DNA of 50,564 nucleotides from the IMG/VR virus record IMGVR_UViG_3300034691_000007, positions 1 through 50,564 of that record, one strand, 5' to 3'. Shown here piece by piece: positions 1-50,564 of this stretch (its first letter is position 1; every line of letters starts with the position of its first letter). The DNA is from a virus (taxonomy: Duplodnaviria > Caudoviricetes). Made by a program: the position numbers and the translations under genes. The notes beneath the pieces were generated by a model that had not been told where the DNA came from, searched no databases, and worked only from the letters and a program-made list of their open reading frames with translations.

Positions 1-127
1 GCTGGGCAAACTAGCTAGTCAGAACCCTGCGTTGGTTCTTGAACTCTTCAATACTTCGGCTCCGAAAGGGCCAACCCCTACCACTTCTAGTGTCAACACT
101 TCTGGCTTCAAGCCGCAAGAACAAGAC
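1..127. repeat. 127-bp terminal overlap with 50438-50564 (circular assembly overlap)
   Basis: Bases 1-127 are identical to 50438-50564. The repeat lies mid-gene, and 127 is a common assembler k-mer length. Confidence 0.95.
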
Positions 128-39535: not shown

Positions 39536-39593
39536 TATAGTATACTAACTATTACTTACTTCTATTACTTCTTACTACTTCTAACTAAACCTC

Positions 39594-39625
39594 AAAAGCC
39601 TACTAGTAATTACTAATAGGCTTTT
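39594..39625. terminator. Bidirectional intrinsic terminator
   Basis: AAAAGCCTA-C-TAGT-AATT-ACTA-A-TAGGCTTTT, with T-tracts on both strands. Confidence 0.75.
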
Positions 39626-39633
39626 ATTGTTTG

Positions 39634-40246: not shown

Positions 40247-40510
40247 TTACTGCTTGTCTTTCCACACCTTGTTAATGGTTGCGCACTTAACGCCACTGCC
40301 TCGGGCTTGACGCTTACCATCTGGATTCCAGAAGCCAGCAACCTTGCCCATTGAGACAACTTGCTTAACCTTCTTTTTGTGGCTGGCCTTCAAGTTACGG
40401 TATTGACGTTTCGCATCAAGGCTACCGTCAAGTAACAGAGCGTCAACCAGTTGAAACGTGCGGCTCGCTAGAGGTTTGCTAACGAGTGTATGATGTTTGC
40501 GTTTACTCAT
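40247..40510 (-). CDS. Early basic hypothetical protein (87 aa)
   Basis: AAGGAG RBS. Confidence 0.7.
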   Translation of the reverse strand: MSKRKHHTLVSKPLASRTFQLVDALLLDGSLDAKRQYRNLKASHKKKVKQVVSMGKVAGFWNPDGKRQARGSGVKCATINKVWKDKQ

Positions 40511-40528
40511 TTCTATATTCTCCTTAGC

Positions 40529-40569
40529 GTTTACCTAAACACACTAGACTATAGTGTCCTTAGGTAAAC
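40529..40569 (-). promoter_or_regulatory. Long stem immediately before the RBS, candidate RNase III site
   Basis: GTTTACCTAA pairs with TTAGGTAAAC, and ACACTA with TAGTGT. Shares CACACTAGAC with the 37501 stem. Confidence 0.6.
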
Positions 40570-40901
40570 CCTTACGGGTTTTGCTCTTTACGAGACTTCA
40601 AAGGGTGACGTGTTACGTTATCGTCACGACTAAGGCTAGTAGCTCACTGCTCACGGGCCTTTGCTATCAGGCGAATGTCAGTCGGCACTTTGGGCACTAG
40701 CTGGCCCCCAAGATACGCTTGGTCGTTTGGGCGGTTTCTGAGCACCGTAGCTCCAGCCGCTTATAGTCTCGACGTGACAATCAGACCTTATTCAGTGAAC
40801 TACGCCATTCAAGGCTGCGCCCAAAGTGTCCAGACTAACCCGCCCTACCTGCTAGGACATACAGTTTGGTTAGAAGCCCCGAGGCCCGTTTGCCTCTTGT
40901 T
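40570..40901 (-). ncRNA. Candidate large structured RNA / leader
   Basis: Nested long-range helices with G-U pairs specific to the minus strand, no credible ORF, directly downstream of a sigma70 promoter. Confidence 0.55.
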
Positions 40902-40907
40902 GGGTTA

Positions 40908-40935
40908 AGTATACAGCATTCTGTCATTGTGTCAA
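40908..40935 (-). promoter_or_regulatory. sigma70 early promoter TTGACA-16-TATACT
   Basis: Near-consensus boxes. Confidence 0.75.
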
Positions 40936-41013
40936 GCCTCATTTTTCTATCTAGGCTTAATCCAACCGGCCAGCATTGGTTAACCCTAACCGTTGCCTGT
41001 GCTGTGAGTCCGT

Positions 41014-41043
41014 AGTGTATGTCGCTAGGCACTGCATTGTCAA
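41014..41043 (-). promoter_or_regulatory. sigma70 early promoter TTGACA-18-TACACT
   Basis: Consensus -35 and near-consensus -10. Confidence 0.65.
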
Positions 41044-41180
41044 CTGAATATTAGTAGCCATTCACAACCGTCATGCGTTGGTTCAATGTGAGTTAACTCA
41101 CAATCAAACCCATCTGCTATATAGCTTTGCATGTAGTTCGTTGCTACGTCAAGACACTTATAGTAACGATAGTATTTCAT
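41040..41180 (-). CDS. Early hypothetical protein (46 aa, MKYYRYYKCL...)
   Basis: Hand-translated; ATGA-coupled to the upstream ORF. Confidence 0.55.
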   Translation of the reverse strand: MKYYRYYKCLDVATNYMQSYIADGFDCELTHIEPTHDGCEWLLIFS

Positions 41181-41320
41181 GACTGGCTATACCAGCGAAC
41201 ATACCACACTTGTTCGCCATCCTCTAGCACAGCTTCAAGCATTACCTTATAGCCTTTGCTCTTATAATAGTTGCGCTTAGCTTTAGCCTTAGCCCAATTA
41301 GTATATCGTTCTTTGATCAT
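41177..41320 (-). CDS. Early hypothetical protein (47 aa, MIKERYTNWA...)
   Basis: GAGGG RBS; downstream of promoters; hand-translated. Confidence 0.6.
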   Translation of the reverse strand: MIKERYTNWAKAKAKRNYYKSKGYKVMLEAVLEDGEQVWYVRWYSQS

Positions 41321-41394
41321 GGTCAAGCCCTCATTATTAGAGTGCCTACCGATCATACACTACAGATTGTTAAAGAGCGGTGGAACATGTAGCC

Positions 41395-41423
41395 ATTGTG
41401 CCGTTTGTTCGTGTTGCTGTCAA
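41395..41423 (-). promoter_or_regulatory. sigma70 early promoter TTGACA-17-CACAAT
   Basis: Consensus -35 with a 17-nt spacer. Confidence 0.6.
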
Positions 41424-41550
41424 GCGGTTATTGCTGTCTTGCGTATCGCATCATTAGTAGGAAGTCCCTAGCATGGCGAACCATGACTAAGCCCTTACTA
41501 ACTAGGCTAGCTTGCTGCCTCTCGGTCTTATGCTTGCTGGCTTGGAACGA

Positions 41551-41579
41551 ACTATAAGCATGTGCCGCCAACCTGTCTA
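41551..41579 (-). promoter_or_regulatory. sigma70 early promoter TAGACA-17-TATAGT
   Basis: One mismatch per box with a 17-nt spacer. Confidence 0.7.
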
Positions 41580-43947: not shown

Positions 43948-45639
43948 ATGAGCACGCTCAACGTAGACACAATCGCCAACACTGCTGGTACTGTCTCCAT
44001 CCCATTGCCATCAGTAGAGATTAAACGAGAGTCTTACGTCTCGCTTGGCAACTGGACTGCTGGACTGACCATCACTGACTTTGATCAGACCTTCACCTAC
44101 AATGGCATCATCTATCGCCCTAAGGCAACCACGGTACTGCCATACACTACTGCTGTAGTGAACACCGACCTGAACTACTTCACCCAGCTTGCTAGTGCAG
44201 GCCCGTATGTTTTCCCAGAAGACTTCGGTGCTGTAGGGGATGGTGTGACTGATGACCGCACTGCCCTGTTGGCAGCCTTCACCGCTGCTGGCACCAAAGG
44301 TGCAACTGTAGTGCTGCGTAAGCGCTATCTGGTTGACAGTGGTGACTTGACCCTGCCTGAGAACCTGCGCCTTGAAGGCACATTCTCCCCTTACGGTATC
44401 CTGCCTTGGCAGACTACCACTGAGGTGCATGCACTCAACTCCACCATCATCCTCAACCCTAGCTACCGCATTGTGTTTGTAGCTGGTGGTCAACTGCATA
44501 ACCTATCTGTAATCCGTAAGGGCCTGACAGTTGCAGAAGCAACCACTGCTAACTTCACTGGCACTGCCTTGTATGGTCAGGGCCTGTATGGTGGTGTATA
44601 TCCAAACGAACATGACGGCATCGTGCTGTCGCACCTTCAGGTAATCGGGTTTAATACCCTCGGCTACTTCGACATGTGCCCTCGGATGGAGATTGAGTAT
44701 GTCTCTGGTGACAACATCAACGGCTTTAACTTCGGTACTGTGTACGATGTACAACGCCTGAAGAACTGCCATATGTGGCCATACAGCACTATCGGTGCTG
44801 GTGCTTCTGGCACCAACCTGAACCGTGGTGGTATCGCTTACTACTTCCGCCTGCGTAACGATATCATGCAGATGGAAGGTTGCTTCTCGTATGGCTACTA
44901 TCGTGGTGTTGTGTTCGATGATGGTATCGGTACTGGTACTATGGTCAACTGCGCTTTCGACAACACTGGGGCCAACACTCAGTCTGGCTCGATCGGTGTA
45001 CTGATCGAAGGGACTTCTACCTACTCGAACTTCATTGGCGTAATCGCTTACGGTAATGACCACGGGTTTTGGATCACTGCTGCTGCAACTGACAACCTCG
45101 TGTTCGATAACTGCCGCGCAGTGGGCAACCTCACTAACGCAGTACACATTGAACGTGGTGGCATTCGTTGGGTTAACGGTACGCTTGCAGGCTCGGTGAA
45201 TGGTGTTACCATCACTGGTGCAAGTTCCCGTCTGGACATCAGTCAGACCAGCTTCACTGACATGTCTAGCACCAACATCCTTGCCTCCAACTCTGCTCAG
45301 GTATACCCAAGCAATAACAAGTACAACAACACAGCAGGTATTGGTGGGTTTGTAATCCCAACCGTTGCCTCTGCTGACCCATTGGTACTCCCAATGAGCA
45401 GCGACGTAGTTGCTGTAAGTGGTTCTACTGGCTTCGGTAACTTGAACTATGGCTGGGCTGGCCGTGTTGTAACCTTGTTCTTCACAGGTTCCGTTACTGT
45501 TTTCAACGGAACTACCGGTGTTGTTAGTGTTATGCACTTGAATGGTGCCACTAGCTTCAACGCTGTAGCGAACAACACTCTTACACTGATGCACAACGGC
45601 AGCTACTGGGTAGAGATTGCCCGTTCACTTAACTCCTAA
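43948..45639 (+). CDS. Tailspike / polysaccharide depolymerase (pectate-lyase-like beta-helix)
   Basis: DFGAVGDGVTDDRTAL..AF motif followed by beta-helix-type N/G-rich rungs and a C-terminal beta domain. Confidence 0.85.
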   Translation: MSTLNVDTIANTAGTVSIPLPSVEIKRESYVSLGNWTAGLTITDFDQTFTYNGIIYRPKATTVLPYTTAVVNTDLNYFTQLASAGPYVFPEDFGAVGDGVTDDRTALLAAFTAAGTKGATVVLRKRYLVDSGDLTLPENLRLEGTFSPYGILPWQTTTEVHALNSTIILNPSYRIVFVAGGQLHNLSVIRKGLTVAEATTANFTGTALYGQGLYGGVYPNEHDGIVLSHLQVIGFNTLGYFDMCPRMEIEYVSGDNINGFNFGTVYDVQRLKNCHMWPYSTIGAGASGTNLNRGGIAYYFRLRNDIMQMEGCFSYGYYRGVVFDDGIGTGTMVNCAFDNTGANTQSGSIGVLIEGTSTYSNFIGVIAYGNDHGFWITAAATDNLVFDNCRAVGNLTNAVHIERGGIRWVNGTLAGSVNGVTITGASSRLDISQTSFTDMSSTNILASNSAQVYPSNNKYNNTAGIGGFVIPTVASADPLVLPMSSDVVAVSGSTGFGNLNYGWAGRVVTLFFTGSVTVFNGTTGVVSVMHLNGATSFNAVANNTLTLMHNGSYWVEIARSLNS

Positions 45640-45645
45640 GGAGAA

Positions 45646-45661
45646 GGGCCAAGGATGGCCC
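45646..45661 (+). promoter_or_regulatory. GGA-loop hairpin, putative CsrA/RsmA binding site, in the terS initiation region
   Basis: GGGCC-AAGGAT-GGCCC between the TAAGGAG SD and ATG 45671. Confidence 0.55.
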
Positions 45662-45670
45662 ACCCCAACT

Positions 45671-46183
45671 ATGATTGATAAGAACAGATTTCTAGACACT
45701 ACAGGCAGACCTCTTACTCAAAGCATCTTCTTGGAGATTGGCTATACAGAGTACGCAGTCTATACCCTTAAAGAATTCGACTACATGTACAAGGGCCAGT
45801 ACTACCCGTCCTTGAAGAAGCTCTTCCTAGAGTGTGAAGACCCAACCGAATATGAATTTGCAACTAAGCACCTTCTCGGCTGGCAGCACTGGAAGCGTCT
45901 ATGTGAGAACAAACAGATTGCACGTCACGTTGCTGAGTGGCGAGAAGAACTGGAACTCAAGATTCGTTCTAACGCTGTACGGGAAATGCAAGCCCTGTGC
46001 GGTAGCGAGAATGGCAACTACAGTGCTGCAAAGTTCTTGGCCGACCGTGGCTGGGATAAACGTGCTGCTGGCCGTCCAAGCAAGAATGAGCTGGAGAAGG
46101 AAACTCGTATTGCAGAACATATTGCCAACGAGTTCAGTGATGATATTGCTCGACTCTCGTTGGTGGTAGATAATGGAAAGTGA
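45671..46183 (+). CDS. terS: Putative terminase small subunit
   Basis: 170 aa directly upstream of and overlapping terL; helical, with a basic AGRPSK motif. Confidence 0.65.
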   Translation: MIDKNRFLDTTGRPLTQSIFLEIGYTEYAVYTLKEFDYMYKGQYYPSLKKLFLECEDPTEYEFATKHLLGWQHWKRLCENKQIARHVAEWREELELKIRSNAVREMQALCGSENGNYSAAKFLADRGWDKRAAGRPSKNELEKETRIAEHIANEFSDDIARLSLVVDNGK

Positions 46184-49919: not shown

Positions 49920-50564
49920 ATGGCCGACCAGCCTAATGTTTTTGATACACCTGTTGCTCCAGTAGTGGAGCCACAAAGCGCTCCTGCTCCATCTGATGCG
50001 CCTTATGCAGACCTGCTTAAGCTCATCAAGAATGAAGAAGGACAACAGAAGTATGACAGTCTTCCGAAAGCGTTGGAAGGCCTTGTGAATGCGCAACAAT
50101 ACATTCCGCAGTTGAAAACTGAACTCCAACAAAAGGAGACGGAATTGAATGAGTTGCGTGCTAAACTGGCCCAACAAGCTTCCATAGAAGAAGTCGTATC
50201 TCGACTTGCTGCCAAACCTAATCAGCCAGAAGTGAAGGAGCCACCCCTCCAAGCTAGCGGACTTGATGAGAAAGCAGTTATGGATTTGCTTGAACAGCGT
50301 CTGCAACAGCGTGAACAAACCGCTGTATATGCGACTAACACTCAAGTGGTCCAAGATGCCCTCGTTGCTAAATATGGTGACAAGGCCGGTGAAGTAATCG
50401 CCACACGAGCAAAGGCTCTCGGCACTACTCCACAGGAGCTGGGCAAACTAGCTAGTCAGAACCCTGCGTTGGTTCTTGAACTCTTCAATACTTCGGCTCC
50501 GAAAGGGCCAACCCCTACCACTTCTAGTGTCAACACTTCTGGCTTCAAGCCGCAAGAACAAGAC
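49920..50564 (+). CDS. Capsid scaffolding protein, 5' part (ends at 241 after the junction)
   Basis: AAGGA RBS; Pro/acidic N-terminus and coiled coil; position between portal and capsid genes. Missing from the ORF track because its stop lies beyond the contig end. Confidence 0.8.
   Translation, partial: MADQPNVFDTPVAPVVEPQSAPAPSDAPYADLLKLIKNEEGQQKYDSLPKALEGLVNAQQYIPQLKTELQQKETELNELRAKLAQQASIEEVVSRLAAKPNQPEVKEPPLQASGLDEKAVMDLLEQRLQQREQTAVYATNTQVVQDALVAKYGDKAGEVIATRAKALGTTPQELGKLASQNPALVLELFNTSAPKGPTPTTSSVNTSGFKPQEQD

What the first reader, a model, noticed from the sequence alone, without database searches (positions are those of the whole stretch)
40570..40901. Large, strand-specifically folded untranslated RNA downstream of an early promoter
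Seen on the minus-strand RNA: an outer helix ACGGGCCU/AGGCCCGU (40889-40882 with 40660-40653) encloses a ~25-bp interrupted helix, GGCGG-GUUAGUC-UGGA-CACUUUGGGC (40844-40819) with GCCCAAAGUG-CC-GACUGAC-A-UUCGCC (40695-40670). That helix encloses a multibranch domain (GCC/GGC, GCGG/CCGC with GAGC/GCUC, CCAAG/CUUGG). Downstream are GUGACG/CGUCAC, a CCC-GUAA-GGG GNRA hairpin and the RNase III-like stem. Several G-U pairs would be A-C mismatches on the other strand. About 370 nt without a credible ORF in an otherwise compact genome. I cannot match it to tRNA, tmRNA, a cobalamin riboswitch, an intron or a small ribozyme. Inference: a novel ncRNA, e.g. an RNA antiterminator letting host RNAP traverse the 25-kb arm, a decoy for a defence protein or toxin, or a ribozyme.
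Basis: partly seen in the sequence, partly recalled or inferred. Interest (0 to 1): 0.85.

Follow-up and report, generated by a model that had tools for sequence, protein, structure and literature searches.

The report
New structured phage and satellite RNA
This untranslated stretch encodes a real, intricately folded RNA of a kind not yet catalogued, made first on infection by a group of Pseudomonas phages and also carried by tiny chromosomal islands that look like parasites of those phages; what it does is still unknown.

Summary
The finding is real. Window 40894-40584 (minus strand) encodes a non-coding RNA of about 310-330 nt. It starts just downstream of an 11/12-match sigma-70 promoter. 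Rfam 15 has no match. No reading frame is conserved.

I collected 22 further copies. Twelve are in PA11/O4/K4/GP100-type Pseudomonas podophages and related IMG/VR or metagenome contigs. Ten are in Pseudomonas chromosomes.

Covariation supports a conserved fold:
- a 5' three-way junction: 87% of cells paired against 68% shuffled, covariation score 0.54 against 0.19, 0/500 shuffles;
- tandem H-type pseudoknots;
- hairpins with conserved loops.

The chromosomal copies lie in 6.3-kb tRNA-Val islands. Each island has an integrase, replication genes and a relative of the phage's terminase-adjacent protein, so these are probably satellites.

The RNA was not found in 5 non-Pseudomonas relatives. Function is unresolved. 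My best guess is a stable, trans-acting early RNA that binds a Pseudomonas-specific or helper-specific partner.

The parts
40908..40935 (-). Sigma-70 promoter TTGACA-16 nt-TATACT, 11 of 12 matches. It is the last of four promoter-like sites on this strand between 40.9 and 41.6 kb.
   Evidence: A TTGACA/-10 pair lies at the same place in most phage copies (seen in win, K4, IME180, PPAT, TC6, PSA11, mgL005/mgL006 and vL012/vL013; not evident in GP100 or vL014) and upstream of the chromosomal copies.
40584..40894 (-). Core of the non-coding RNA (RNA positions 1-311; position p = window 40895-p). It runs from the invariant 5' motif to the terminal hairpin CUC-GUAAA-GAG.
   Evidence: Homologous over this span in 22 other loci. 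Model R1 scores the first 119 nt (40776-40894) at 76.7 bits, E 1.6e-16. No ORF. No Rfam match.
40883..40894 (-). 5'-terminal motif GGCAAACGGGCC, at or within about 10 nt of the predicted transcription start. It may form a GGC/GCC mini-hairpin.
   Evidence: Positions 2-12 are invariant in 21 of 21 sequences; position 1 is G in 19. RNAalifold pairs columns 1-3 with 10-12, but there is no variation to test it.
40842..40858 (-). P3 hairpin GUCCU/AGGGC, preceded by the conserved junction AACUGUAUGUC.
   Evidence: Coordinates. Family helix 1 has 96-97% of cells paired. Column pair 58-72 occurs as C-G (11), U-A (5) and A-U (3).
40779..40840 (-). P4 (GGUUAG/CUGAUU) encloses P5 (40826-40819 with 40800-40793) and P5a (GCC/GGC, loop UUGAAU). 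Together with P3 this is the conserved 5' three-way-junction domain.
   Evidence: Coordinates. In the family all 6 P4 pairs and 6 of 8 P5 pairs show changes on both sides. The outer P5a pair occurs as A-U (13), G-C (3) and G-U (1). In the window P5 keeps 6 of 8 pairs.
40756..40778 (-). P6 hairpin GUCG-AGACUAUAAG-CGGC. Its loop start (GAC) can pair with GUC just upstream, giving pseudoknot PK0.
   Evidence: Stems differ between copies (GUCG/CGGC, CAUCG/CGAUG, GGGAG/CUCCC, GCUG/CAGC). The PK0 pairing GUC/GAC in win/GP100 against CCC/GGG in K4 was read by eye and was not tested statistically.
40732..40753 (-). PK1, an H-type pseudoknot. S1 is GAGC/GCUC, L1 is UA, S2 is CGGU/ACCG, L3 is AGAA.
   Evidence: A pseudoknot of the same architecture is found at the same place in 20 of 21 copies, with 13 different S2 stems. 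The search mis-picked in bL040. Summed score over 16 distinct copies is 141.5 against 91.9 +/- 9.6 in shuffles, 0 of 200.
40708..40726 (-). PK2, a second H-type pseudoknot. S1 is ACG/CGU and S2 is CCAAG/CUUGG.
   Evidence: One search finds it in 19 of 21 copies; the picks in bL026 and bL028 are weak or displaced. Summed score is 138.0 against 76.8 +/- 10.9, 0 of 200.
40692..40707 (-). P9 hairpin GGGC-CAGCUAGU-GCCC. Its loop GCUAGU can pair with ACUAGC at 40640-40635 (PK3).
   Evidence: Present in 11 of 11 phage-type copies with 6 different stems. PK3 has compensated partners at homologous places (GUCAGU/ACUGAC in vL012/vL014; UGGCACG/UGUGCCG in K4). It is not significant per sequence: 8-176 of 200 shuffles do as well.
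40646..40682 (-). P10a (ACUG/CAGU) encloses P10 (GCCU-GAUAGCAA-AGGC), a hairpin with the conserved loop UAGCAA(A).
   Evidence: P10 is found in 11 of 11 phage-type copies with 7 different stems. P10a (ACUG/CAGU against CUAG/CUAG in vL012/vL014) was read.
40605..40627 (-). P11, a variable hairpin GUGACG/CGUCAC.
   Evidence: Hairpins of other sequence stand at this place in GP100 (read by eye), and in mgL005, vL012 and vL014.
40567..40594 (-). Terminal hairpin CUC-GUAAA-GAG (40594-40584), then AACCC-GUAA-GGGUU (40580-40567).
   Evidence: The first hairpin is present in 19 of 21 copies and covaries (CUC/GAG, CCC/GGG, CCCC/GGGG). It is absent from vL012 and vL014. The second resembles a weak terminator only on the plus strand.
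40532..40566 (-). Long hairpin of 8+6 bp between the RNA and the first ribosome-binding site. I infer it is an RNase III processing site that releases the RNA from the early mRNA.
   Evidence: A long hairpin of unrelated sequence (about 14-21 bp) stands at this place in 10 of 10 phage copies examined. Processing is an inference by analogy with T7 early mRNA (recalled).
40247..40528 (-). Ribosome-binding site (AAGGAG, 40525-40520) and the first early gene (87 aa, basic, phrog_5722). In the MFE the RBS region pairs with CCUUAGU at 40634-40628.
   Evidence: Homologues lie downstream of the RNA in GP100 and the O4/K4 group. Other copies carry a different first gene.
39593..39626 (-). Strong terminator-like hairpin (15 bp plus a U-rich tail) after the second early gene. 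It probably ends the immediate-early unit that begins with the RNA.
45617..46183 (+). Conserved phage protein (phrog_8035; the real start is probably at 45671). It overlaps the start of the large-terminase gene, which is the small-terminase position. Its C-terminal part is shared with the island gene next to the island's RNA copy.
   Evidence: E 1.9e-71. tblastn gives 38% identity over 52 aa, E 1.8e-7. The same synteny holds in 5 of 5 other Zobellviridae checked. No Pfam, NCBIfam or PDB sequence match.

Best explanation
The region encodes a new family of highly structured non-coding RNA of about 310-330 nt.

Shown:
- It lies downstream of a near-consensus sigma-70 promoter at the head of the early transcription unit of PA11/O4/GP100-type Pseudomonas podophages.
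- It has no conserved ORF.
- Its fold is conserved by compensatory change. The fold is a 5' three-way junction (P3-P4-P5/P5a) with invariant junction and loop nucleotides, then a string of H-type pseudoknots (PK1 and PK2, probably also PK0 and PK3), then hairpins with conserved loops.
- The same RNA is a stand-alone gene in 6.3-kb tRNA-Val islands of fluorescent pseudomonads. The islands carry an integrase, a replication module and a relative of the phage's terminase-adjacent protein, but no virion genes.

Inferred:
- In phages the RNA is cut from the early mRNA at the long hairpin that follows it, and it accumulates as a stable RNA within the first minutes of infection.
- It acts in trans by binding a protein or RNA partner specific to Pseudomonas cells or to this phage-satellite system. 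Examples would be a decoy or inhibitor of a host factor, made without need of translation from the first DNA to enter.
- The islands are satellites of these phages and carry their own version of the RNA for the same purpose, or to compete with the helper's copy.

The confidence given (0.4) is for the trans-acting, partner-binding mechanism. My confidence that this is a genuine new structured RNA family is about 0.9.
For: Reality of the RNA:
- 23 copies are held. R1 scores them at 77-111 bits, against 12-22 bits for 13 chance pattern hits.
- 5' domain: 87.2% of cells paired against 67.9 +/- 1.4 shuffled. Covariation score is 0.541 against 0.187. 82 cells are changed on both sides against 26.9. 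All three measures are 0 of 500. Slid partners give 34-54% paired. The figures are the same after realignment to the model.
- RNAalifold finds P3, P4, P5 and P5a without being told.
- PK1 and PK2 exceed shuffles, 0 of 200 each.
- Conserved G-U pairs fix the strand.
- No ORF. No Rfam family.

Stand-alone, trans-acting:
- Judged by eye, about 6 of 10 island copies have only a convergent gene downstream; L016 and L026 have a same-strand 77-78-aa ORF and L040/L042 an apparent short ORF. No call tabulated this for all 10.
- All 10 phage copies examined have a long hairpin of variable sequence between the RNA and the first RBS.
- The first gene after the RNA differs between phage copies.

Host-linked rather than a virion function:
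- R1 finds nothing at E<=1 in 5 of 5 Zobellviridae of Klebsiella, Salinivibrio, Citrobacter, Erwinia and Vibrio, although they share the terminase module.
- Among 150 sampled Gammaproteobacteria outside the query genome there were no matches.
- 8 of 401 sampled Pseudomonas genomes hold it.

Satellite link:
- The island is 6,327 bp between 72-nt direct repeats at tRNA-Val.
- It carries an integrase, a wHTH initiator-like protein and a DEAD-type helicase, and no structural genes.
- orf118 matches phrog_8035 and the window protein next to TerL.
- 5'-domain modules are mosaic between phages and islands.
Against: - The 5' and 3' ends, processing and stability are therefore inferred.
- No partner was identified. 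The phage early proteins flanking the RNA have no homologue in the islands.
- The complement of the invariant 5' motif is no more frequent in host genomes than a control pattern.
- Read by eye (not tabulated), 2 to 4 of 10 island copies (L016 and L026 clearly; L040 and L042 probably) have a short ORF after the RNA on the same strand (a 77-78-aa hydrophobic protein in L016 and L026). In the window the RBS of the first gene can pair with the RNA's 3' part. A cis role is therefore not excluded.
- A strong terminator-like hairpin 1.3 kb downstream fits an antiterminator as well.
- The sequences are related, so the shuffle controls overstate independence.
- Absence from distant relatives may reflect divergence beyond R1's reach.
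- In the window itself the consensus nested fold (-96.7 kcal/mol without pseudoknot stems) is much weaker than the MFE with the window-specific long helix (-126.7). The window also lacks the family's J4/5 motif and is the lowest-scoring member, at 76.7 bits.
Confidence: 0.4

Rival explanations
1. Cis-acting processive antiterminator or leader. The nascent RNA stays with host RNA polymerase and lets it read through terminators of the early arm, as HK022 put RNA does. Alternatively it controls translation or stability of the first early gene.
For: - It is the first element transcribed from the strongest promoter-like site.
- A 15-bp terminator-like hairpin follows two genes downstream, and few sigma-70-like promoters lie beyond it.
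- No phage RNA polymerase was noticed, but I did not annotate the whole genome.
- The RBS of the first gene can pair with the 3' part of the RNA in the window, and with a U-rich segment in K4, IME180, PPAT and TC6.
Against: - By eye (not tabulated for all 10), about 6 of 10 island copies face a convergent gene with no ORF on the RNA's strand.
- A long hairpin, probably a processing site, separates the RNA from the mRNA in 10 of 10 phage copies.
- At about 310 nt with several pseudoknots it is far larger than put (about 70 nt, two stem-loops; recalled).
- The downstream gene is not conserved.
Confidence: 0.2
2. An RNA that serves DNA replication or packaging, and which the satellite copies in order to use the helper's machinery. 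It could be a transcript that primes or activates an origin near the left genome end. It could instead be an RNA cofactor of the terminase/portal, comparable to phi29 pRNA.
For: - The only things shared by phages and islands are this RNA and the C-terminal part of the terminase-adjacent protein. In the islands the two genes are neighbours.
- In GP100 and K4 the RNA lies 1.1-1.3 kb from the left end of the deposited genome.
- The island is one eighth of the phage genome in length. This recalls concatemer packaging of PICMI satellites (PMC10803314, passages read).
Against: - It was not found in 5 of 5 related phages that share the terminase, portal and terminase-adjacent protein.
- It is transcribed from an early host-type promoter.
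- The island's protein has its own N-terminal HTH-like segment (read by eye), so it need not mimic the helper's packaging site.
- No Rfam match to pRNA.
Confidence: 0.12
3. A ribozyme or a ligand-binding RNA. The 5' three-way junction, with invariant junction nucleotides and variable helices, would be a catalytic core or an aptamer.
For: - The pattern is invariant single-stranded junctions and loops (5' motif, AACNGUAYGU, UUNRAU loop, GUAG, AAAGC) between freely covarying helices.
- Several pseudoknots are present.
- The size and complexity are typical of ribozymes and large riboswitches (general knowledge).
Against: - No resemblance to any ribozyme or riboswitch model in Rfam 15.
- No conserved expression platform.
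- Stand-alone copies in islands argue against a riboswitch.
- Nothing here indicates a cleavage site.
Confidence: 0.1
4. The 8-bp outer helix and the 25-bp long-range helix would close the RNA into one large multibranch domain, perhaps as an alternative conformer to the family fold.
For: - It is the thermodynamic optimum in the window: -126.7 against -96.7 kcal/mol for the consensus nested fold.
- The long duplex scores -40.0 kcal/mol, which is unlikely by chance.
- The window has lost the family's J4/5 motif exactly where the new complementarity lies.
Against: - The long helix is not conserved even in GP100 and mgL005, which share its 3' strand almost unchanged (-15.3 and -22.7 kcal/mol).
- It excludes P4, P5, P9 and P10a, all of which covary.
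- The 5' domain is transcribed about 120 nt before the competing strand, so the local fold forms first (inference).
- Pseudoknot stems are not counted in the energy comparison.
Confidence: 0.1
5. It is not an RNA at all. It would be a conserved DNA element such as a protein-binding array, an origin or a packaging site.
For: It is conserved at nucleotide level near a genome end and next to a terminase-related gene in the islands.
Against: - Conservation takes the form of compensatory base-pair changes.
- Conserved G-U pairs would be A-C on the other strand.
- Helix sequences vary freely while pairing is kept.
- A promoter stands directly upstream of most copies inspected, though none was evident in GP100 or vL014.
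Confidence: 0.03

Closest known systems
GOLLD and ROOL (large 'ornate' RNAs often found in phages and prophages)
   Same: Both are large, elaborately structured RNAs with many covarying helices, carried by phages or mobile elements. ROOL and GOLLD often lie near tRNA genes, and their function is unknown. This is recalled; I saw the abstract of bioRxiv 10.1101/2024.12.08.627333 only in the listing.
   Different: There is no sequence or structure match in Rfam 15. This RNA is about 310 nt rather than about 600-800 nt. It was found here only in Pseudomonas phages and islands. It sits at the very start of an early transcription unit and is built around tandem H-type pseudoknots.
HK022 put RNAs (cis-acting processive antiterminators)
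   Same: Both are phage RNA elements transcribed first from an early promoter by host RNA polymerase, upstream of terminators, in a phage that appears to rely on the host enzyme. The properties of put are recalled.
   Different: This RNA is about four times larger, has another architecture, stands alone in islands, and is followed by a probable processing hairpin.
phi29 pRNA (packaging RNA)
   Same: Both are phage-encoded structured RNAs expressed from an early promoter near a genome end of a podophage (recalled).
   Different: There is no Rfam match. It is absent from related phages with the same packaging genes. There is no evidence of a link to the portal.
RNA decoys used by phages against defence (pseudo-ToxI antitoxin mimics, RNA anti-CRISPRs)
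   Same: The shared idea is a phage-made RNA, often pseudoknotted, that neutralises a host protein without translation (recalled). This is what I think the element most likely works like.
   Different: Those RNAs are short repeats that copy a host RNA. Here there are no tandem repeats, and no homologous host RNA was found outside the islands.
PICMI satellites of virulent Vibrio phages (PMC10803314)
   Same: This comparison concerns the islands, not the RNA. PICMIs are integrative elements of about 6-7 kb with an integrase and replication genes but no capsid genes. They are mobilised by a virulent phage of about 49 kb and packaged as 8-copy concatemers. The paper notes 'large non-coding regions' that were not analysed (passages read). 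The islands here are 6,327 bp, and eight copies make 50.6 kb.
   Different: According to the paper PICMIs have no terS-like gene, integrate near fis and carry alpA. These islands integrate at tRNA-Val and carry a relative of the phage's terminase-adjacent protein. Mobilisation has not been shown.

Membership tests
Any Rfam 15 family (4227 models, including tmRNA, RNase P, 6S, group I/II introns, pRNA, GOLLD, ROOL, riboswitches, small ribozymes) | Covariance-model score at or above the family's gathering threshold | tested here: not met
   There were 0 matches in the whole window. At E<=10 the only hit was a MIR398 chance hit on the other strand. No hit fell on the RNA in 5 chromosomal loci or in 6 further loci at E<=5.
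tRNA / tmRNA | tRNA-like domain recognised by ARAGORN | tested here: not met
   ARAGORN reports 0 genes in the window. In the island loci it reports only the flanking tRNA genes.
Type III antitoxin RNAs (ToxI-like) | Tandem direct repeats of a 30-45-nt unit next to an endoribonuclease toxin gene | tested here: not met
   No tandem repeats in 40400-41100. No PADLOC hit for the neighbouring proteins.
HK022 put-type antiterminator RNA | Placed between an early promoter and downstream terminators of the same operon | tested here: met
   In the window and the other phage copies the promoter is at 40935-40908 and a terminator-like hairpin at 39626-39593. This does not hold for about 6 of 10 island copies, judged by eye.
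HK022 put-type antiterminator RNA | Two-stem-loop structure of about 70 nt that acts only in cis on the transcribing polymerase | tested here: not met
   The architecture differs: about 310 nt, a three-way junction and pseudoknots. Cis action cannot be tested with these tools.
phi29-type pRNA | Conserved together with the packaging motor across related phages | tested here: not met
   R1 found nothing at E<=1 in 5 of 5 related phages that keep the terminase genes.
Protein-coding gene | A reading frame conserved among homologues | tested here: not met
   Each sense frame carries 3-14 stops in 21 of 21 copies. The longest ORFs differ in place and strand. The helices differ in length by non-multiples of three.
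Phage satellite (for the islands that carry the RNA) | Small integrative element with integrase and replication genes, no virion genes, and a gene derived from the helper's packaging module | tested here: met
   That the phrog_8035 protein is a small terminase rests on gene order only. The AlphaFold model was too poor to use, at pLDDT 55.5.
Phage satellite (for the islands that carry the RNA) | Induction, packaging and transfer by a helper phage | not testable with these tools
   This needs experiments.

The most novel reading that the evidence does not exclude
A new class of large pseudoknotted RNA shared by virulent phages and their minimal satellites. It would be made from the first DNA to enter the cell and would work as an RNA-only weapon: a translation-independent inhibitor of a Pseudomonas defence or housekeeping factor, or a ribozyme. 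Satellites would copy and recombine it module by module to protect themselves or to interfere with their helper.
Probability: 0.3. Interest if true: 0.9.

Novelty: categorically new. Interest (0 to 1): 0.82.

Why it matters
Few large, complex-folded RNA classes are known in bacteria and phages, and each has opened a field (RNase P, tmRNA, riboswitches, pRNA, OLE/ROOL/GOLLD).

This family has three or four pseudoknots, a junction core with invariant nucleotides and abundant covariation. It is small enough (about 310 nt) for probing and cryo-EM. It also occurs in culturable systems: GP100 on P. protegens, and PA11/O4/K4/TC6 on P. aeruginosa.

Its presence in lytic phages and in 6.3-kb islands that look like their satellites gives a direct handle on what an early phage RNA does. 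It also bears on how minimal satellites exploit virulent helpers, a question the PICMI study left open (passages read).

It further shows that the 'hypothetical ORFs' annotated across this stretch in TC6, PSA11 and PPAT are probably spurious.

Tried and rejected
- Rfam at a lenient threshold on the window and on 11 homologous loci gave nothing on the RNA.
- blastn of the phage collection is insensitive here. It returned 4 records with the window query and 1 with an island query, although tblastn with the 87-aa protein found 13 records and, of the 6 whose upstream region I fetched and aligned (GP100, K4, IME180, PPAT, TC6, PSA11), all 6 carry the RNA.
- The genome contigs pattern scan gave 18 loci. 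Five Pseudomonas loci are true copies. The other 13 score only 12-22 bits with R1 and were dropped.
- A target for the invariant 5' motif: its complement occurs in three host genomes as often as a reversed control pattern, so it gives no lead.
- A shared protein partner: the phage early proteins beside the RNA have no homologue in 10 island loci. Island proteins other than orf118 have no clear homologue in the phages; the one other hit was orf135 over 20 aa, E 0.002.
- Known defence systems: the only PADLOC hits were weak Csa3-like HTH matches for the 89-aa protein. NCBIfam gave nothing useful.
- Small-terminase identity of the phrog_8035 protein: no Pfam, NCBIfam or PDB sequence match. All 120 listed relatives that carry a name are called 'hypothetical protein'. 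The AlphaFold2 model from a 30-sequence alignment had mean pLDDT 55.5, so I did not send it to fold search.
- PK3 could not be established statistically.
- P2 is a variable hairpin in most copies but weak in the window. This was read by eye and was not quantified.
- A P1 helix closing the whole RNA is not supported outside three close relatives.
- A first whole-length RNAalifold run on a rough MAFFT alignment was uninformative.

Literature. Five full-text searches found no description of this RNA. In the TC6 genome paper (PMC6209634) a term search found no mention of promoters or intergenic regions, and only one sentence on the non-coding fraction.

No expression evidence could be gathered.
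Full report
**The locus.** The window is a complete virus record of 50,564 bp. Its 127-bp terminal repeat lies inside a gene, so the record is a circularly permuted assembly. Gene content and similarity place it among Zobellviridae-like Pseudomonas podophages; the relatives are GP100, a P. protegens phage, and the PA11/O4/K4 group. On the minus strand four sigma-70-like promoters lie between 41.6 and 40.9 kb. The last and best is TTGACA-16-TATACT at 40935-40908, with 11 of 12 matches. From about 40.90 kb to the ribosome-binding site at 40525 there is no credible ORF. The first gene (87 aa, phrog_5722) starts at 40510, a 186-aa gene follows, and then comes a 15-bp terminator-like hairpin at 39626-39593.

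**Check of the observation.** The minus-strand RNA folds better than shuffles: -143.6 kcal/mol, z -4.6, 0 of 100. The plus strand gives z -2.8. Rfam 15 has no match at gathering score or at E<=10. ARAGORN finds nothing and there are no tandem repeats.

**Homologues.**
- blastn showed that the non-coding stretch is among the few parts of this phage with nucleotide similarity to GP100 and O4/K4.
- Using the downstream protein, conserved motifs and pattern scans I collected copies from GP100, K4, IME180, PPAT, TC6 and PSA11, two metagenome contigs and four IMG/VR contigs.
- Unexpectedly, five Pseudomonas chromosomes also held copies.
- A BLAST search with one chromosomal copy found the element in 8 of 401 sampled Pseudomonas genomes.
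- In all, 21 sequences (20 distinct in the 5' domain) were analysed. Two further near-identical copies, L006 and L015, were added.
- The 13 non-Pseudomonas pattern hits are chance: 12-22 bits with model R1 against 77-111 bits for members.

**Conserved structure, 5' domain.** All copies begin with GGCAAACGGGCC, placed at or within about 10 nt of the predicted start. A variable hairpin (P2) follows, then the junction AACNGUAYGU. After these come:
- P3, 5 bp;
- P4, 4-6 bp, which encloses the motif UGUAAGUAG;
- P5, 8 bp, capped by P5a with the loop UUNRAU;
- the motif AAAGCU.

On a plain MAFFT alignment these 22 pairs are formed in 87.2% of cells, against 67.9 +/- 1.4% when partners are shuffled. 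Fifteen pairs show changes on both sides. The covariation score is 0.541 against 0.187, with 0 of 500 shuffles as high. Sliding the partners by 1-3 columns gives 34-54% paired. Realignment to the covariance model gives the same figures. RNAalifold, given no structure, recovers P3, P4, P5 and P5a. Conserved G-U pairs fix the transcribed strand.

**Conserved structure, pseudoknots and 3' domain.**
- Downstream of P4 is a hairpin (P6) with a conserved 10-14-nt loop. That loop can pair with the bases just 5' of the stem (PK0). This was read by eye, with support.
- Two H-type pseudoknots of constant architecture follow, PK1 and PK2: S1 of 3-4 bp, L1 of 0-4 nt, S2 of 3-7 bp, and an A-rich L3.
- A constrained search finds PK1 and PK2 at the same places in nearly all 21 copies, with quite different stem sequences; S2 of PK1 has 13 variants. 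Three picks were wrong or weak: PK1 in bL040, and PK2 in bL026 and bL028.
- Over 16 distinct copies the summed scores are 141.5 against 91.9 +/- 9.6 for PK1, and 138.0 against 76.8 +/- 10.9 for PK2, 0 of 200 shuffles each.
- Phage-type copies continue with P9, present in 11 of 11 with six different stems. Its loop has a compensated partner downstream (PK3) in two subgroups, but this is not significant per sequence.
- Next is P10, a hairpin with the loop UAGCAA(A), present in 11 of 11 with seven different stems. It is enclosed by P10a.
- A variable hairpin P11 follows, then a terminal hairpin CYC-loop-GRG that is present in 19 of 21.
- Chromosomal copies share the 5' domain, PK1 and PK2. Their 3' domain of about 100 nt is different and well conserved, with three hairpins, two of them with GNRA loops (read by eye).
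- No frame is open in any copy.

- The outer helix has a partner at the homologous place only in the window, mgL005 and GP100. It overlaps the 3' strand of P10.
- The 25-bp helix is specific to the window: -40.0 kcal/mol against -15.3, -22.7 and -13.1 for the homologous segments of GP100, mgL005 and vL012.
- It is mutually exclusive with P4, P5, P9 and P10a.
- In the window it is thermodynamically strong. The MFE is -126.7 kcal/mol, against -96.7 for the consensus nested fold with pseudoknot stems uncounted.
- The window has lost the J4/5 motif and is the lowest-scoring member.
- I therefore treat the long helix as a lineage-specific alternative conformer that only probing can resolve, not as the family's structure.

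**Context in phages.** In 10 of 10 phage copies examined, a long hairpin of unrelated sequence (about 14-21 bp) lies between the RNA and the first ribosome-binding site. By analogy with T7 early mRNA (recalled) I read it as an RNase III site that releases the RNA. The first gene differs among copies. In several copies, the window included, the ribosome-binding site can pair with upstream sequence.

**Context in chromosomes.**
- The chromosomal copies lie in an island next to tRNA-Val(GAC).
- In one genome the island is bounded by perfect 72-nt direct repeats 6,327 bp apart.
- It encodes a tyrosine integrase, an 89-aa winged-helix protein resembling replication initiators, a 487-aa DEAD-type helicase (phrog_2467) and small proteins of unknown function. 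It has no virion genes and no known defence system.
- The gene convergent with the RNA, orf118, matches phrog_8035 (E 7.7e-5). It also matches the C-terminal part of the window protein at 45617-46183 (38% over 52 aa, E 1.8e-7).
- That window protein is itself phrog_8035 (E 1.9e-71) and overlaps the start of the large-terminase gene. The arrangement is kept in 5 of 5 other Zobellviridae checked.
- This is the small-terminase position, but the assignment rests on gene order only.
- The island therefore looks like a minimal satellite of these phages. Eight copies (50.6 kb) equal one phage genome, as in the concatemer-packaged PICMI satellites of Vibrio (PMC10803314, passages read).
- Modules of the 5' domain are mosaic between phages and islands. 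For example, bL043 carries the window-type P6 loop and bL033 the vL014-type. One island copy is 81% identical to GP100 over 92 nt. This points to exchange between the two kinds of element.

**Distribution.** Model R1 found nothing at E<=1 in five Zobellviridae of Klebsiella, Salinivibrio, Citrobacter, Erwinia and Vibrio. It also found nothing in 150 sampled Gammaproteobacteria other than the query genome. R1 may miss diverged forms, but as sampled the RNA is confined to Pseudomonas phages and Pseudomonas islands.

**How it most likely works.**
- Shown: it is a promoter-proximal, non-coding RNA with a conserved fold, shared by lytic phages and satellite-like islands of one host genus.
- Inferred: it is released and stable, and it acts in trans on a partner specific to that host or to the helper-satellite pair. 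It is made from the first DNA to enter and needs no translation.
- For this reading: stand-alone island genes, the probable processing hairpin, a non-conserved downstream gene, and absence from relatives that share the virion and packaging genes.
- Against this reading: no partner was found, no expression data were available, and several cis-type features remain.
- My confidence is about 0.9 that this is a genuine new structured RNA family, and about 0.4 for the trans-acting partner-binding mechanism.

**Novelty.** There is no Rfam 15 family. Five full-text searches found no description, nor did the passages of the TC6 and PICMI papers I read. Supplements could not be seen. ORFs annotated over this stretch in TC6, PSA11 and PPAT are probably spurious.

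Noticed in passing
L049:12402-18800 (G001:C20) and L050:12781-19001 (G179:C1); also L016, L026, L028, L032, L040-L044: A 6,327-bp integrative island at tRNA-Val(GAC), bounded by 72-nt direct repeats. It carries an integrase, a wHTH initiator-like protein, a DEAD-type helicase, a relative of the phage's terminase-adjacent protein and the RNA gene, but no virion genes. It is probably a new minimal satellite family of Pseudomonas. Eight copies equal one phage genome.
   Followed up: partly
window 45617-46183 (+): A conserved protein of unknown function (phrog_8035; homologues are about 167 aa, so the likely start is 45671). It overlaps the start of the large-terminase gene here and in 5 of 5 other Zobellviridae checked, and tblastn finds it in 111 phage records. 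It is probably the unrecognised small terminase of this family. The AlphaFold model was too poor to test this (pLDDT 55.5).
   Followed up: partly
window 39593-39626 (-): A 15-bp hairpin with a U-rich tail directly after the second early gene. It is the strongest terminator-like site in the early arm. Few sigma-70-like promoters lie downstream of it, so how the middle genes are transcribed is open.
   Followed up: no
window 40908-41579 (-): Four sigma-70-like promoters in tandem within about 700 nt, interspersed with very short ORFs (46 and 59 aa, no PHROG match). The layout resembles the multiple early promoters at the left end of T7-like phages.
   Followed up: no
window 1-127 and 50438-50564: The 'direct terminal repeat' of the record is a 127-bp overlap inside a gene. 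The record is therefore a circularly permuted assembly, and the true genome ends probably lie near 41.5-42.3 kb by comparison with GP100 and K4.
   Followed up: partly
L028:6826-7024: A C4 antisense RNA and its a1/b1 target (Rfam RF01695, RF03163) lie about 6 kb from the RNA copy in Pseudomonas sp. GM21. This suggests a P1/P7-type immunity element beside, or at the edge of, the island.
   Followed up: no
L007:1352-1555 (TC6_068), L008:1313-1516 (PSA11), L010:1219-1344 (PPAT): ORFs annotated as hypothetical proteins overlap the promoter and the first part of the RNA in these phage records. They are not conserved and are probably mis-annotations.
   Followed up: partly
L016, L026, L040, L042 (downstream of the RNA copy): In L016 and L026 a 77-78-aa hydrophobic ORF follows the RNA on the same strand, and L040 and L042 show a shorter ORF there (by eye). 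In the other six the next gene is convergent. This may be variable cargo or a regulated gene.
   Followed up: no
L013:1142-1215 and L001:2034-2103: A tRNA gene (vL013) and an annotated pseudo-tRNA (GP100) lie in the early region shortly downstream of the RNA in some phage copies. The window has none.
   Followed up: no
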